Of a DNA stretch of 64,000 bases, positions 1,146-63,399 are shown one piece after another. The stretch comes from Octopus vulgaris (Eukaryota): NCBI GenBank assembly GCA_951406725.2, contig OX597820.1, positions 16,120,001 through 16,184,000 of the forward strand, in the 5' to 3' direction. Made by a program: the position numbers and the translations under genes. Below the pieces are notes generated by a model, which was not told where the DNA came from, ran no database searches, and saw only the letters and a list, made by a program, of their open reading frames with translations. The stretch's first letter is position 1. Every line of letters starts with the position of its first letter.

Positions 1146-2122
1146 GATACTTTGATACTTTGATACTTTGATAGGTTTCGGCCATTATTGGCCCAGGCCA
1201 TGTCTAACTTAATAGCACCACCTGGTGAAGTCTTTCAAGTCAGAATTTGGGCACTATGGCCCACTCAAGTAGAGAGTTATTGTTTACAGAGACATATCCG
1301 GGTGTAGGGGGTTTATCCGGGATTTCTTGAAGGAATCTGTCCAAAGACTTCTTGAACCCTATAGGGTCAGTTTCTGTTTTAATGTGTTTTGGTGTAATGT
1401 TAAAGAGAGCGGGGCCAATTGAGGTGAAATAATTGTGCCGTATTGTTGTTATGAGATGAGAGTGCGATTTTTGTTTTGGGCGGATGGCACGGGGCCCAAG
1501 CCTTGGATGTACCTTAAAGGTGATGCCAACATCATTTGGGCAATGCTGATGGAATATTTTCCACATCATGCAGATGATGTAGCGCTCACGACGACGTTGG
1601 AGAGAATAAAGTTTTAGCTTTTCTAGTCGACCCCAATAGTCGAGGCCTGTCATGCCATCTATCTTTCTTGTGATTGCCCTTTGAGGTGCTTCAACTTTTA
1701 TGATACTTTGTATTGTGTGGAGAGACCACAGTGGACAACAGTATTCAAGGTGGGGTCGGGCAAAAGTGGAGAAGAGAAGGATAATGGTGTGGATATCTCT
1801 CGACTGGAAAGTTCTGAGAATCCAGGAACACATTCTGCGGGCCATGTCAACTTTGGTGTTTATATGAGTGGCCCAGCTTATGTTGTTGTCCACAATTACT
1901 CCCAAATCTCTGATGTTGTTGGACGCCGCGAGAGTTTCACCTGAAGGAAGGGAGTATGGGAGTTTCAGGGCATCCTCTTTTCCAAAGTGGATTAACTCAA
2001 ATTTATCCTCGTTCAGCAGCATATTGTTTTTTTCTGCCCATTGGATAACAGCCAGTAGATCTGACTGAAGGCATGTCCGGTCACTCGCCTCATTTATGAC
2101 CTTCTGTAGCTTGGAATCATAG
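1146..2122 (-). mobile_element. 5'-truncated CR1/L2-group LINE: C-terminal part of the RT ORF, 3' UTR and (TATCAAAG)n tail
   Basis: The ORF 1240-~2119 is open for about 290 codons and has the motifs DSKL, RDLGVIVD, RPHLEYCCPLWS and LEKLKLYSLQRRRER. The tail reads (GATACTTT)3 on +. The ORF N-terminus beyond 2122 is microsatellite read-through. Confidence 0.85.
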
Positions 2123-2348
2123 ATACATACATAAATACATACATACGTACATAAATACATACATACGTAGAATGATTGATTGATTGATTGATTAACAGAT
2201 GGATGTGTGACTGACTGGCTGAATAGATACGTACATACACAATAAATACATACATACATACACACATACATACAGACATACATACACGCATACGTTACGT
2301 ACGTACGTATGTATGTGTGTGTGTATATATATTTATATACGTACATAC

Positions 2349-2404
<56 letters not shown>

Positions 2405-2481
2405 TTCTCTTTTTCTCTGTCCCCTCCCTATATATATATATAGGGAGGAAAGAGAAAAAGAGAGAAATAGATAGACAGATA

Positions 2482-3790: not shown

Positions 3791-4204
3791 TGCCACCCAC
3801 CCCAATAAAGAATATAAAAAATGTAACTAAGAATGACATATCAACCGCTTGCGTTGATAATTTCGACGATTGATTGGTGGATTGCCGAATAACTATAACG
3901 TTGAATATTTCCGGTTTCCAGGTAAATTGTTCGCCTCCGAACCAAATTCGGTTCCTCTCTACACTCTTTCTGGACCTCCTAGAAAAAGCAGCCAAACCTT
4001 CTTCACATTACACCCTACCCTACAAGAACAGCAAACTTTCAGATTACTCGTCGTATATTTCATGGCAAATGAAAATGTCATGGAATATGGGACACAAAAA
4101 TGATAAAATATGGATAATTTTTAAAAAACCGTTTTTTCTTCTGTATCATAATTTCCCTTGTATGAAATACAATACAGGGACATTAGCAAAACACACACAC
4201 ATAT

Positions 4205-4298
<94 letters not shown>

Positions 4299-4768
4299 AT
4301 CAATATCAATTAAGGGTAAAACTAATTAATTACGAAGTAATCAATAAATTTCACCAAGTAGAATTCGGTATGAAAACAGGACCGTTATACGGTAAATTCT
4401 AGTAATACTAATATTAAGGGATCAGCAAAGGAATGCATCATCACATACCGAAGTTCAGAAATAGCAGCCAAAATCTATGCCATTTCTTCTACTTAAAAAA
4501 GTCTACTAGGGAAACCATAATACCCAGGCAGAGGGTAACGTAACGAAAATCAATCAATATCCGATTATCCATAGACGCGCGTTTCGGAATCAGGTTTTAA
4601 ATAAAGAATATCCAAAAATATAAACTTTACTAACCACATTCCTCTTCAGTATGGATTTTCTGTAATAATCCGAAGGTACTAAAACATTAGAATGACTCCT
4701 TCAATGTAACGGCCGCTAATGTAAGTACCGCCAGATTCAAAGTATGAATGAAAGTCGCTTAGCCTTTA
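4299..4768 (-). mobile_element. Penelope-like pseudo-LTR or retrozyme-like fragment between (TA)n tracts
   Basis: Contains the hammerhead at 4567-4656 and shares architecture with 4787-4990 and 24641-25186. Confidence 0.6.
4567..4656 (-). ncRNA. Type I hammerhead ribozyme, canonical core
   Basis: Minus strand: ATCCATA-CTGAAGA-GGAAT..(long loop)..ATTCC-GAAA-CGCGCG-TC-TATGGAT. Stem I is 7 bp, stem II 5 bp, stem III is palindromic and the cleavage triplet is GUC. Confidence 0.85.
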
Positions 4769-4880
4769 TATATATATATATATATAATCAATTTAGGGTA
4801 GCAAAAAATTCAATAGAAATTATTTTGCCACCAGCGGTCTAGTGAGAAAGAGGAAATAGTCAGAGATTATAAATAAATTC

Positions 4881-5159
4881 AACAACAATTGAGGAACGAC
4901 CACAATAGGCCGTTCGACCCACTAGAAATAGCAGCCAGGGCTCCAACCGCAAATAGTAGTAATTCCGAAATCTAAGGAAAAATAAAAATAAAAATAAAAA
5001 ATAAAAAAATAAAAAAATAAAATAAAAAATAAAATAAAAAATAAAATAAATGTTTTTTATTTTTCCTTAGATTTCGGAATTACTACTATTTGCGGTTGGA
5101 GCCCTGGCTGCTATTTCTAGTGGGTCGAACGGCCTATTGTGGTCGTTCCTCAATTATTG

Positions 5160-5161
<2 letters not shown>
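4881..5161. repeat. Near-perfect inverted repeat (~110-bp arms) around an (AAAAAT)n spacer
   Basis: 4881-~4990 is the reverse complement of ~5052-5161 with about one mismatch. Confidence 0.9.
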
Positions 5162-24640: not shown

Positions 24641-24645
<5 letters not shown>

Positions 24646-25996
24646 CAACAATTGAGGGTAAAATTAATTAATTATTAATCAATTTCACCAAGTGTTCAGT
24701 ATGCAAAGGGGCCATTTAAGGCGAATTCAAATTATTACATTATATAAAAGGGCTTAGTAAAATAAATTACTTTGCCGCATACTGAACTCATTAGAAATAG
24801 CAGCTAAAAAACTTTTTTTAAAGCTATTTCTAATACTTAAAGAAAATCTCTCTCATATATAGTGTTTGCTTAATTCAACTCACAAAAGTTTGGGGGTAAG
24901 GACATCAAAAAATCGAATGCTAAGGTTATTTGAGAACGTACGTTTCAAGATTAGTCAAAACAACACTTCTATCATCAGCTCAGAAACTCCTTGGTTTGGA
25001 TTTGGAAACACTGAAAGTAAGAACATACCCTTTCGAAGATCCGCTCGTAACTAACAGTGCCAACAAACCCAAATAAGCAAGCGAAGAATTTCTGTTCTTC
25101 CCTTTCCACCAGCGTGGGTTAAAATCATCAAACACTATGCTTATTTCGGTAAAATCCGAAGCATTAATTAGAGGGAGATTAATTATAATTTCAACAATTG
25201 AGGGTAAAATTAATTAATTATTAATCAATTTCACCAAGTGTTCAGTATACAAAGGGACCATTTAAGGCGAATTCAAATTATTACATTATATAAAAGGGCT
25301 TAGTAAAATAAATAGAAGTGTTGTTTTGACTAATCTTGAAACGTACGTTCTCAAATAACCTTAGCATTCGATTTTTTGATGTCCTTACCCCCAAACTTTT
25401 GTGAGTTGAATTAAGCAAACACTATATATGAGAGAGATTTTCTTTAAGTATTAGAAATAGCTTTAAAAAAGTTTTTTAGCTGCTATTTCTAATGAGTTCA
25501 GTATGCGGCAAAGTAATTTATTTTACTAAGCCCTTTTATATAATGTAATAATTTGAATTCGCCTTAAATGGCCCCTTTGCATACTGAACACTTGGTGAAA
25601 TTGATTAATAATTAATTAATTTTACCCTCAATTGTTGAAATTATAATTAATCTCCCTCTAATTAATGCTTCGGATTTTACCGAAATAAGCATAGTGTTTG
25701 ATGATTTTAACCCACGCTGGTGGAAAGGGGAGAACAGAAATTCTTCGCTTGCTTATTTGGGTTTGTTGGCACTGTTAGTTACGAGCGGATCTTCGAAAGG
25801 GTATGTTCTTACTTTCAGTGTTTCCAAATCCAAACCAAGGAGTTTCTGAGCTGATGATAGAATACTAATCTTATATATATATATGATGTCCTTATATATA
25901 TATATATAAGTATAGAAATAGCTTTAAAAAAGTTTTTTAGCTGCTATTTCTAATAGTTCAGTATGCGGCAAAGTAATTTATTTTACTAAGCCCTTT

Positions 25997-26005
<9 letters not shown>
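24641..26005. mobile_element. 546-bp Penelope-like unit as direct (1.2 copies) plus inverted, circularly permuted copy
   Basis: The unit 24641-25186 restarts at 25187. 25314-25863 is the reverse complement starting from an internal point (~24970). Confidence 0.75.
24931..24982 (-). ncRNA. Type I hammerhead, canonical core, weak stem II
   Basis: Minus strand TGAG-CTGATGA-TAGA..TCTT-GAAA-CGTACG-TT-CTCA, with palindromic stem III. Confidence 0.6.
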
Positions 26006-54089: not shown

Positions 54090-54654
54090 TTAGGTTGTCT
54101 GGAAAGTTTGTGCCGATTTTTGAAGGAAAGAAAAAGGTCAATAAATACTTGCCATTACATTTTTAATCAACCAAACATGAACCATTTTGTTGCACAATGC
54201 GTCTCCATCTTTCCTTTAACTTGAAAATACCCTCTTCCCAGAATTGAGGTGGTTTCATGGCAAAGAATTCATCAAGGTATCTTTTTACGTCATCCCAGGA
54301 ATTGAAATTTTTACCATTAAGACTATTCTGCAGAGACCTGAATAAGTGGAAATCCGAAGGAGCAACATTTGGTGAATATGGAGGGTGAGGTAGCACATCC
54401 CAGCCGAGCGGCAGCAATTTTGTCTGGTTCCCAAAGCATCAAGTGCCGAAAATGAACTTTCTTATCTTCCATTTTAAAGGGTTACAGAATTAACACAGGT
54501 TATAGGAACATAAACCTTCTTCCACGAAAAGATAGCTTAAACTGTGCTCTAAACGGAGGTGTAGTCAAACCCTATTTTATGGACACAACCATGTTCTAAA
54601 ATTAGCGGAAACGTAAGCTACTATAAATCGGCACAAACTTTCCGGACATTCCAA
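54090..54654 (-). mobile_element. Internally deleted mariner (MITE-like), 565 bp
   Basis: TA|TTAGGTTGTCTGGAAAGTTTGTGCCGATTT ... AAATCGGCACAAACTTTCCGGACATTCCAA|TA. Retains the transposase C-terminus LPHPPYSPNVAPSDFHLF (54163-54417). Confidence 0.9.
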
Positions 54655-62119: not shown

Positions 62120-63399
62120 CGAGGGACGTTCAATAAGTAATGCCCCTGCAGTTGTTTGATCTAGCTAAAATTTTGCATGTACAATTATTTATATCTCTAT
62201 AGATTAAGTGGCAAATTACAGCTCTGAGCTAATTGTGGTTTCTGATTTACAGGTGTTTGAACTGAGTCAAGTGTGAAATGGAGCCTGTTGAGTGTCGAGC
62301 AGTGATCCGGTTTTTGTATTTGAAAGGACGCACACCACGGGAGACTTTTGATGAAATGAAAGTAACTTATGGTGATAATGCCCCATCATATGACCTTGTA
62401 AAACGCTGGTATCGGGAATTCAAACATCGTCGGAACTCTGTGGAAACAGCTCCCAGATTTGGTCGCCCCCTTCTGCCATTGATGAGGCAGCTGTCCGTCA
62501 AGTTGAGGCTGCCATTTTAGAAGATCGACGCAAAACTATTCGCCAAATAGCCCATGAGGTCAAGATTAGTACCGGGTCTGTGGAAACTATCATTCATGAC
62601 CATTTGCATATGCAAAAGGTGTCTGCCAGATGGATTCCCAGGTTGCTCACACCTTTCCAGAAGCAAGAACGCGTCGAGCGCTCGAGGATGAATTTGGAGA
62701 TGTGCCAAGAAGATGAGTCAAAACTTTTCAAAAGAGTGATTACACAGGATGAAACATGGGTCCATCACTATGATCCAGAGACCAAAGCCCAGTCAATGCA
62801 GTGTAAGCACCGTGACTCACCTCCTCCAAAGAAGGCAAGAGTGCAGCCCTCCGCTGGCAAGGTCATGCTCACAGTCTTCTGGGACCAGGACGGAGTAGTG
62901 ATGACAGATTTCCTGACAAAGGGTACCACAATTACTGGAGCCTATTATGCTTCACCTTTGAGGAAATTAAGAGAAGCTATCAAAATCAAGAGGCGGGGCA
63001 AGATCAGCAAAAGCATCCTCCTCCTGCAGGACAACGCTCCGGTCCACAACTCGCGTGTCGCCAGATCAGAAGCACAGGCGTGCGGCTATGAACTCCTCCC
63101 CCATCCCCCCTACTGTCCTGACCTTGCACCTTCTTATTTTCACCTCTTCCCAGCCATGAAGTTGTTTTTGAAAGGAAAGCGTTTCCCAGATGATGCAGCC
63201 TTGATTTCTGAAGTCACGTCGTGGTTGGAGGACCAAGCTGTGGTCTTCTACAAAAACGGTCTCCAGAGCTGCATCAAACGATGGGAGAAATGCGTAACTC
63301 TGGGTGGTTCGTATGTAGAAAGAGAAGCCAAGTGCCAAGTTTCGTTGATCTACTGCTATGGGAAGTGGGTCAGGGGCATTACTTATTGAACGCCCCTCG
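62120..63399 (+). mobile_element. Full-length mariner (DD34D type, irritans-like TIR), 1280 bp
   Basis: 29-bp TIRs CGAGGG(A/G)CGTTCAATAAGTAATGCCCCTG with 1 mismatch, and TA duplications at 62118-62119 and 63400-63401. Confidence 0.95.
62278..63389 (+). pseudogene. Mariner transposase pseudogene
   Basis: WIPRLL, TQDETW, QDNAPVH and YCPDLAPSY motifs. There is a frameshift near 62470 and the third catalytic Asp, 34 residues after the second, is Tyr. Confidence 0.9.

What the first reader, a model, noticed from the sequence alone, without database searches (positions are those of the whole stretch)
4300..4940. Unnamed covarying stem motif ending in AGAAATAGCAGC shared by three divergent elements
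Seen at ~4310-4470, ~4790-4937 and ~24650-24805: AGGGTA ... CACCA ... [stem] ... [stem'] ... AGAAATAGCAGC. The stems differ in sequence but pair each time: TTCGGTATG/CATACCGAA, TCTAGTG/CACTAGA and GTTCAGTATGC/GCATACTGAAC. In two cases the motif lies about 100-130 nt 3' of a hammerhead on the same (minus) strand. Inference: a conserved cis-acting RNA structure, such as an RT-recognition, priming or processing element, that I cannot assign to a known family.
Basis: partly seen in the sequence, partly recalled or inferred. Interest (0 to 1): 0.7.

Follow-up and report, generated by a model that had tools for sequence, protein, structure and literature searches.

The report
Retrozyme fold marking two copy starts
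The three look-alike stems are one conserved, predicted RNA fold carried by many families of small protein-free jumping repeats that bear a predicted self-cutting RNA, and inserted copies end at two fixed spots just behind its hairpins, so it likely tells a borrowed Penelope-type enzyme where to start copying.

Summary
Real, but it reads on the minus strand and is larger than described: a ~150-170-nt fold (12-mer GCUGCUAUUUCU, outer stem P1 enclosing hairpins P2/P3, then hairpin P4). The three elements are truncated copies of three families of non-coding hammerhead repeats (non-LTR retrozymes, 483-594-nt units) inserted in (TA)n; a strict pattern has 3,178 hits in the genome, control 0. The fold covaries across 12 subfamilies (7 pairs changed on both sides) and is better conserved than the rest of the unit. 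Copies end at two sites, mostly 7-15 nt behind CC(C)U at the foot of P2 or of P4, none between; 43 of 44 two-armed insertions have one end of each kind. That is the Penelope 'tail' footprint, so the fold likely sets two reverse-transcription starts. No helper element carrying it was found. Element 2's fold is homologous, antisense, to the HDV-like ribozyme head of an old ~215-nt repeat; the young families cannot fold that ribozyme. Not in Rfam or the papers searched. This scan found the fold and the two ends before on other DNA; two look-ups found no note of the antisense link.

The parts
4298..4765 (-). Element 1: one-armed, 5'-truncated copy of retrozyme family 1 (564-nt unit), long end at the (TA)n on the left
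4567..4656 (-). Type I hammerhead of element 1 (stem I 7 bp, long stem II loop, short stem III; predicted cut after GUC at 4574)
   Evidence: stems differ but pair across families
4303..4473 (-). Start module, copy 1: 12-mer 4457-4468; P1 4444-4452 with 4364-4372; P2 and P3 inside; P4 4315-4355; CC(C)U and AU-rich run to the long end
4787..5160 (.). Element 2: two-armed (inverted) insertion of family 2 (486-489-nt unit); long end at 4787, short end at 5160, A-rich junction in the middle; both arms stop before the hammerhead
4785..4940 (-). Start module, copy 2 (12-mer 4924-4935; P1 4918-4926 with 4838-4846; P4 4797-4832); found at 38.7 bits by a model built without this family
5107..5160 (+). 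Short arm of element 2: 12-mer, P1 5' strand and P2, ending at the short site
24642..26002 (.). Element 3: two-armed insertion of family 3 (~547-nt unit) with partial tandem and internal inversions; long end 24642, short end 26002
24645..24809 (-). Start module, copy 3 (12-mer 24793-24804); further copies at 25474-25638 (+, whole), 25191-25330 (-, partial) and 25940-26002 (+, short arm)
24939..24978 (-). Hammerhead core of element 3 (GUU triplet, U-U at the base of stem II: a weaker variant)
3956..4021 (+). Decayed copy of the old ~215-nt repeat whose HDV-like head is homologous, antisense, to the front of the module (holds the 1-mismatch 12-mer at 3981-3992)

Best explanation
The motif is a conserved, predicted RNA fold at the ends of non-coding hammerhead repeats (non-LTR retrozymes) that likely recruits the reverse transcriptase-endonuclease of a Penelope-like element and likely sets its two start sites. 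Shown: the units are non-coding tandem monomers with one type I hammerhead each; the fold is kept by compensatory changes on the hammerhead strand; copies sit in (TA)n and end at two sites about 95-100 nt apart, each a few bases behind CC(C)U at the 3' foot of a hairpin (P2 inside the P1 loop, P4 just outside it); two-armed insertions carry one end of each kind. Inferred: the hammerhead would cut multimeric transcripts to unit length (linear or circular); the borrowed protein would bind the fold, nick (TA)n on both strands and prime from both 3' ends, using the AU-rich run behind each hairpin as a short match to the TA primer, much as a template-boundary hairpin works in telomerase RNA (analogy from my own knowledge); P1 would hold the two starts side by side, so that one cut end starts at the long site and the other at the short site, giving the inverted arm and the one-sided tail.
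For: Carriers: monomers of 483-594 nt with one hammerhead each, whose stems change but pair; no ORF of note in 50 loci. Strand and fold: 15 of 16 subfamily representatives fold better on the hammerhead strand; on 12 representatives of the element 1/3 clade 95% of 342 cells pair, 7 of 29 pairs change on both sides, 0 of 500 shuffles reach the covariation score, slid controls pair 38-44%; the model built from these finds element 2's family, which was left out (38.7 and 45 bits), and further families share the layout with other stem sequences. Constraint: module 69-85% alike against 52-70% for the rest among five element 1/3-clade units; 55-63% against chance level (50-54%) between clades. Ends: element 1/3 clade 40 short, 46 long, 0 at 81-140 nt, 27 running on or unplaced, of 113; family 2 19, 22, 0 and 10 of 51; distance from CC(C)U 4-25 nt, mostly 7-15. 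43 of 44 two-armed insertions are long+short, 1 long+long. Published parallel: anole PAc starts internally at two sites in a stem-loop, which bound the genomic tail, cuts and extends both strands, and is predicted to be a dimer (PMC11167929).
Against: No autonomous partner carrying the fold was found: seven groups of C-terminal-GIY-YIG elements sampled here also have two ends, but 33-60 nt apart and with no comparable fold (z about 0), so two ends do not need this fold and the helper is unnamed. The counted structure was derived from the same sequences and the 12 rows are related, so the covariation figures lean towards it; RNAalifold on the 16-row MAFFT alignment kept only 4 pairs because family 2 was misaligned. 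Many loci were picked with a long-form query, which guarantees one long end and selects against short+short. End positions are blurred by TA microhomology. The tail (about 95-100 nt) is far longer than the published 30-40 nt. PAc showed no difference in start site between strands, whereas the pairing here is strict. The sister arm was the strictly nearest sequence for only 37 of 88 arms (21 ties), so copying of both arms from one RNA is not shown.
Confidence: 0.7

Rival explanations
1. The fold serves the RNA's life before copying (stability of the circle, gating of the hammerhead, binding of a host protein, or a DNA promoter element for the 12-mer); the two ends are set only by AU-rich microhomology to (TA)n next to any hairpin.
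For: Both ends fall in AU-rich runs; autonomous elements have two ends without the fold; the 12-mer is the 3' strand of an upstream hairpin whose 5' strand varies, as a protein- or DNA-read word might be.
Against: The units hold many other AU-rich runs, including the P4 loop and the stretch between the sites, with 0 ends at 81-140 nt; the same hairpin-CC(C)U-end spacing recurs twice per unit and in families unalignable elsewhere.
Confidence: 0.15
2. The likeness is only shared descent of one repeat family, with no selection on the fold.
For: Elements 1 and 3 are homologous over the whole unit; the 3' end of a TPRT element is the part always copied.
Against: Compensatory and G-U-compatible changes on one strand; families at chance identity outside the module keep the layout.
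Confidence: 0.07
3. The motif is a new self-cleaving or processing RNA.
For: An invariant word beside helices, with no Rfam match.
Against: Each unit already has a hammerhead; the 12-mer varies across the superfamily and is predicted to be paired; the mapped ends are 3' ends at the target, not cut points inside the fold.
Confidence: 0.05
4. The plus strand is a working HDV-like ribozyme, so the units carry ribozymes on both strands and replicate as RNA like viroid-like agents.
For: The module front is homologous to the antisense of an HDV-like head.
Against: The L3-like loop is absent in 50 of 50 family-2 copies and 140 of 149 element 1/3-clade copies; each of the two candidate catalytic cytosines is U in a whole young family (37 and 35 copies); P4 has A-C mismatches in family 2; 15 of 16 representatives fold better on the other strand.
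Confidence: 0.03

Closest known systems
Metazoan non-LTR retrozymes (Cervera and de la Pena 2020, PMC7229834, parts 2-4 of 6 read; Li, Clavereau and Pollet 2026, bioRxiv 10.64898/2026.07.22.740005, parts 1-3 of 5 read)
   Same: Non-coding tandem units, one type I hammerhead each, low GC, proposed to be moved by Penelope-like elements.
   Different: Units of 483-594 nt, longer than the 170-400 nt of the 2020 paper (within the 51-972 of the 2026 preprint). The parts read describe no conserved second fold, no fixed start sites and no cephalopod; they leave the mobilisation mechanism open.
Internal RT start stem-loop and 'tail' of Poseidon from Anolis carolinensis (PAc; Frangieh et al. 2024, PMC11167929, parts 1-2 of 4 read, supplements not read)
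   Same: Two internal start sites downstream of a hammerhead that bound a one-sided tail; AT-rich target; both strands extended.
   Different: PAc is autonomous, its signal lies in the first 172 nt of the ORF, the sites are adjacent (tail 30-40 bp) in one AC-rich stem-loop, with no strand difference. Here the carrier is non-coding, the sites are about 95-100 nt apart behind two separate hairpins, and strictly paired one per arm. No sequence likeness was tested.
Insertion footprint of EN+ Penelope-like elements, (TA)n-targeting Neptune and Naiad clades (Craig et al. 2021, PMC8557442, passages and section 6 read)
   Same: Partial tandems, inverted 5'-truncated arm, tail at one end, (TA)n targets.
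   Different: No RT/GIY-YIG ORF; longer tail; canonical type I hammerhead rather than a minimal variant or none.
HDV-like ribozyme heads of L1Tc/ingi-clade elements (L1TcRz, NARTc, SIDER; PMC3185411 and PMC4035085, passages read)
   Same: Applies to the old 215-nt repeat, not to the motif: nested P1-P4 order, one-pair P1.1, first base C at the 5' end, no ORF.
   Different: The old head has P1 with 5 of 7 pairs, P3 of 2 pairs and an extra base in J4/2, and scores 15.7 bits against a gathering score of 35 (CPEB3 model). The retrozyme module matches it only in antisense and has lost the catalytic parts.

Membership tests
Metazoan non-LTR retrozyme | Short tandem repeat unit | tested here: met
   Head-to-tail units of 483-594 nt; arrays of 7 or more units at 545-nt spacing listed
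Metazoan non-LTR retrozyme | One type I hammerhead per unit | tested here: met
   Core and stems I-III in all 8 monomers printed (for L188 read, as the script picked a wrong core); Rfam did not call them
Metazoan non-LTR retrozyme | No protein, GC under 50% | tested here: met
   No element ORF in 50 loci; module GC 0.28-0.40
Metazoan non-LTR retrozyme | Unit length 170-400 nt as first described | tested here: not met
   483-594 nt; within the wider 51-972-bp range of the 2026 preprint
Metazoan non-LTR retrozyme | No LTR, primer-binding site or polypurine tract | not tested
   None seen in the monomers, but not searched for
Metazoan non-LTR retrozyme | Self-cleavage and circular RNA in vivo | not testable with these tools
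   Needs bench work or stranded raw reads
Penelope-like element footprint | Partial tandem plus inverted 5'-truncated arm | tested here: met
   44 two-armed insertions
Penelope-like element footprint | Tail at one end only, 30-40 bp | tested here: inconclusive
   One-sided in 43 of 44, but about 95-100 nt long
Penelope-like element footprint | (TA)n target as in Neptune/Naiad | tested here: met
   127 of 164 module copies of the two main clades end at (TA)n at one of the two sites; the other 37 run on into the next unit, end elsewhere or are cut
Autonomous Penelope-like element | RT plus GIY-YIG ORF | tested here: not met
   Absent from the units; present in other families of the genome (753-782 aa) that lack the fold
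HDV-like ribozyme (module read on the plus strand) | L3 loop, P1.1 and catalytic C | tested here: not met
HDV-like ribozyme (head of the old 215-nt repeat) | Nested P1, P2, P3, P1.1, P4 and C-N-A-A junction | tested here: inconclusive
   Column majorities over 58 decayed copies fit P2 (7), P4 (6), P1.1 (U-A, 44 of 56), P3 (2) and P1 (5 of 7); single copies pair poorly; 28 of the seed copies were picked by a pattern covering P4
HDV-like ribozyme (head of the old 215-nt repeat) | Rfam gathering score | tested here: not met
   CPEB3 model 15.7 bits, E 0.13, gathering 35, one copy tested
Any Rfam family (for the motif) | Match at gathering score | tested here: not met
   (best 150 of 228 shown)

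The most novel reading that the evidence does not exclude
One RNA fold hands two start sites to a dimeric Penelope reverse transcriptase, so that both cut ends of the target are copied from one retrozyme RNA, and this fold was built from the antisense strand of an HDV-type ribozyme taken from an older retroposon: a ribozyme recycled, backwards, into a priming signal (or a relic of an ancestor with ribozymes on both strands).
Probability: 0.15. Interest if true: 0.8.

Novelty: new variant of a known kind. Interest (0 to 1): 0.52.

Why it matters
How animal retrozymes are copied back into the genome, what a Penelope reverse transcriptase recognises on its template, and why Penelope insertions carry an inverted arm and a one-sided tail are open questions. 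This fold gives a defined, covarying 160-nt signal with two mapped start sites and thousands of natural variants, so each question becomes a mutagenesis experiment with the published in vitro assay. A portable signal that directs an RNA into (TA)n would also be of use for RNA-templated gene insertion. The link to an antisense HDV-like head would be an unusual case of RNA structure exapted across strands and across retroelement classes.

Tried and rejected
Rfam on the window, on 4300-4960 and on a family-2 unit: nothing near a gathering score. Metagenome scan: 37 pattern hits, none with the P4 hairpin (at most 2 inner pairs) or a TA run, so chance. Coding explanation (the 12-mer reads Ala-Ala-Ile-Ser): no ORF, and indels of any length in the module. 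Helper search: GIY-YIG and EN-protein searches of the genome, 80 loci with Penelope protein hits checked for an adjoining module, the RNA model on 58 and 20 sources, relaxed patterns: every module near a Penelope ORF was a separate insertion, except two without a TA run between (L179, read; L032, a weak 32-41% hit, not read). Only top-scoring C-terminal-EN families were sampled; Naiad-type elements were not, and the genome-wide model search gave no answer, so the helper stays open. L053, at first taken for a coding partner, is best read as a nested insertion in a TA flank. A protein search with the 781-aa ORF gave only similar elements. Expression: no RNA holder listed; contigs of three runs guessed to be RNA and one unclassified run cover the unit, which says nothing on transcription, cleavage or circles. 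A hammerhead in the old repeat: looked for by eye on both strands, none. Direction of borrowing between the old repeat and the retrozymes: not resolved; no tree was built. Literature searches found no description of this fold; most subscription journals, Repbase and the supplements of PMC7229834 and PMC11167929 were not seen and could hold one.

Full report
Setting. The window is G000:C7:16120001-16184000 in a 2.8-Gb animal genome. That it is an octopus is my recall of its common repeats and the wording of earlier scan notes; no call names it.

1. Observation. The 12-mer has 6 exact copies in the window. The three regions fold better than all 200 shuffles on the minus strand (z -3.9, -5.6, -6.9) and less well on plus; the helices hold G-U pairs on minus that would be A-C mismatches on plus. 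A strict pattern (12-mer, 80-110 nt, GGTG, 18-45 nt, TACCCT) has 3,178 matches in the genome and 0 for the reversed control; a variant pattern has 2,080, control 4; a third, for more distant families, 1,532 on the forward strand (reverse count inflated by overlaps), control 0. Rfam has nothing near a gathering score. In metagenome contigs the 37 hits lack the hairpin and the TA run.

2. What carries it. Tandem copies give the whole units: 564 nt (element 1), 486-489 nt (element 2), 545-566 nt (element 3), and 483-594 nt over further families. They are non-coding and each has one type I hammerhead whose stem I changes between families but pairs; the predicted cut lies 123-130 nt before the 12-mer in the element 1/3 clade and about 75-79 nt before it in family 2. 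Insertions sit in (TA)n as partial tandems with an inverted, 5'-truncated arm. These are the features of metazoan non-LTR retrozymes (PMC7229834; bioRxiv 10.64898/2026.07.22.740005) with the footprint of Penelope-like elements (PMC8557442; PMC4209133 part 1 of 4). In the window, element 1 is one-armed (4298-4765), element 2 two-armed and cut before its hammerhead (4787-5160), element 3 two-armed with internal inversions (24642-26002).

3. The fold. Read 5' to 3' on the hammerhead strand: an upstream hairpin whose 3' strand is the 12-mer (its 5' strand varies by G-U-compatible changes); P1 (7-13 bp); inside it P2, CC(C)U, an AU-rich run, a small P3 and a U-rich linker; then P4, CC(C)U and an AU-rich run. 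Of 16 subfamily representatives 15 fold better on this strand. On 12 representatives of the element 1/3 clade, 95% of 342 cells pair, 7 of 29 pairs change on both sides (18 cells), no shuffle of 500 reaches the covariation score, and slid partners pair 38-44%. The structure came from these sequences and they are related, so this leans towards it; RNAalifold on all 16 rows kept only 4 pairs because MAFFT misplaced family 2. An independent check: the covariance model from the 12 rows finds element 2 at 38.7 bits and its relative L191 at 45 bits, and still more distant families. These keep the layout with other stem sequences and with variants of the 12-mer, so the fold, not the 12-mer, defines the superfamily. 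The module is better conserved than the rest of the unit: 69-85% against 52-70% within the element 1/3 clade, 55-63% against chance (50-54%) between clades.

4. The ends. Counting from the 12-mer to the next TA run, distinct copies end in two windows and never at 81-140 nt: 40 short and 46 long of 113 (27 run on, end elsewhere or are cut) in the element 1/3 clade, 19 and 22 of 51 (10 others) in family 2. Both ends lie 4-25 nt, mostly 7-15, behind CC(C)U at the 3' foot of a hairpin: P2 for the short end, P4 for the long end. In two-armed insertions both 3' ends point outwards, and 43 of 44 have one long and one short end (35 of 35 in the smaller set). Many loci were picked by a long-form query, which fixes one long end, not the other. 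The sister arm was the strictly nearest of 87 other arms for 37 of 88 arms, tied for 21.

5. Mechanism. In anole PAc, reverse transcription starts internally at two sites that bound the genomic tail, both DNA strands are cut and extended, the protein is predicted to be a dimer, and hammerhead cleavage is not needed in vitro. By that precedent the two ends here are inferred to be two RT starts. The repeated unit hairpin-CC(C)U-AU-rich run suggests a boundary hairpin followed by a short template that matches the TA primer; P1 joins the two units, which would place both starts near a dimer holding both target ends. All of this is inference from genomic footprints; binding, priming, cleavage and circles were not tested.

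6. The helper is not found. The genome has many intact RT-GIY-YIG ORFs of 753-782 aa with the Cx4CxxC linker of the Neptune/Nematis type (clade features). Seven such groups have variant hammerheads where read and two ends 33-60 nt apart, but no comparable fold, and the model does not match their ends. One family-2 copy is joined, without a TA run, to a decayed Penelope RT fragment in the same sense (L179), which may be a template switch; it is one case. Naiad-type elements were not sampled.

7. An old repeat shares the front of the module in antisense. The 12-mer alone (plus one W 66 bases on) has 23,830 matches against 104 for the control; many of the first 100 listed are not retrozymes. They belong to a decayed ~215-nt repeat with a (CAA)n tail on the opposite strand, one copy of which lies at window 3956-4021. 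Its head reads as an HDV-like ribozyme: weak CPEB3 match (15.7 bits, E 0.13), column majorities fitting P1-P4 with deviations, a design known from L1Tc/ingi elements. A profile of this head matches element 2, L191 and L190 beyond the 12-mer (21.6, 21.9, 17.8 bits; 0 of 300 controls that keep the 12-mer reach them), and L327 at 20.9 bits (no control run); for elements 1 and 3 the match does not go beyond the 12-mer (21 and 10 of 300 controls reach it), and 2 of the 12 targets did not match at all. The head's 5' boundary falls within a few bases of family 2's short end. The young families cannot form the ribozyme on their antisense strand. Either a retrozyme ancestor took up the old head backwards and turned it into the P2 start unit, or the old repeat began as a short retrozyme arm; the HDV-like fold favours the first, the coinciding boundary the second, and I could not decide.

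8. Prior knowledge. Six literature searches found no account of this fold. Earlier notes of this scan describe what appears to be the same fold and the two fixed ends in this genome and another, a Naiad helper in mussels, and the HDV-headed old repeat; I had noted the two ends and the HDV likeness before those look-ups. Two look-ups found no note on the antisense link.

Verdict. A real, selected RNA structure in a known class of element; most likely the recognition and twin-start signal for a Penelope-type enzyme (0.7). New variant of a known kind; interest 0.52.

Noticed in passing
window 3956-4021 (+); L228-L255: Old ~215-nt repeat with an HDV-like head and (CAA)n tail; some copies are in tandem (L230, L240, L242, L247) or inverted (L236). 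Its head is homologous in antisense to the family-2 module.
   Followed up: partly
L179:1500-2290 (-): A 5'-truncated family-2 unit is joined without a TA run to about 280-380 nt of decayed Penelope RT coding sequence in the same sense, with no Penelope sequence beyond the 3' end: possible template-switch chimera.
   Followed up: partly
L118, L119, L120, L194, L196, L197 (G000, many more listed): At least two very young Neptune-type Penelope families with many intact 753-782-aa ORFs; variant hammerhead cores and tails of 33-60 nt; the 781-aa family has a further 330-390-aa open frame upstream in several copies.
   Followed up: partly
3' ends of autonomous groups A, A2, B, C, D: Words loosely like the 12-mer (GC, then ATTT(T)C or similar) lie 22-37 nt before the short end; picked by eye, not tested against chance.
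   Followed up: no
window 4988-5054: The junction of the two arms of element 2 is an expanded (A5-7 T)n run, as if the enzyme slipped on the U-rich tract downstream of the hammerhead.
   Followed up: no
window 1240-2427 (-): 395-aa open frame ending in a LINE-type reverse transcriptase C-terminus (a related piece in L013); family not determined.
   Followed up: no
window 62394-63389 (+) and 54163-54438 (-): Mariner-type transposase frames (331 aa nearly whole; 91-aa fragment); name recalled from the motifs, no call.
   Followed up: no
L319:2277-2717 (-), L322:1234-1743 (+), L068:1360-1650 (+): GIY-YIG-like frames unlike the Neptune-type ones: probably other Penelope clades and, for L068, a host nuclease exon.
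   Followed up: no
The element-3 family is held by DNA-like or unclassified runs of four organism labels, so it is shared among related species.
   Followed up: partly
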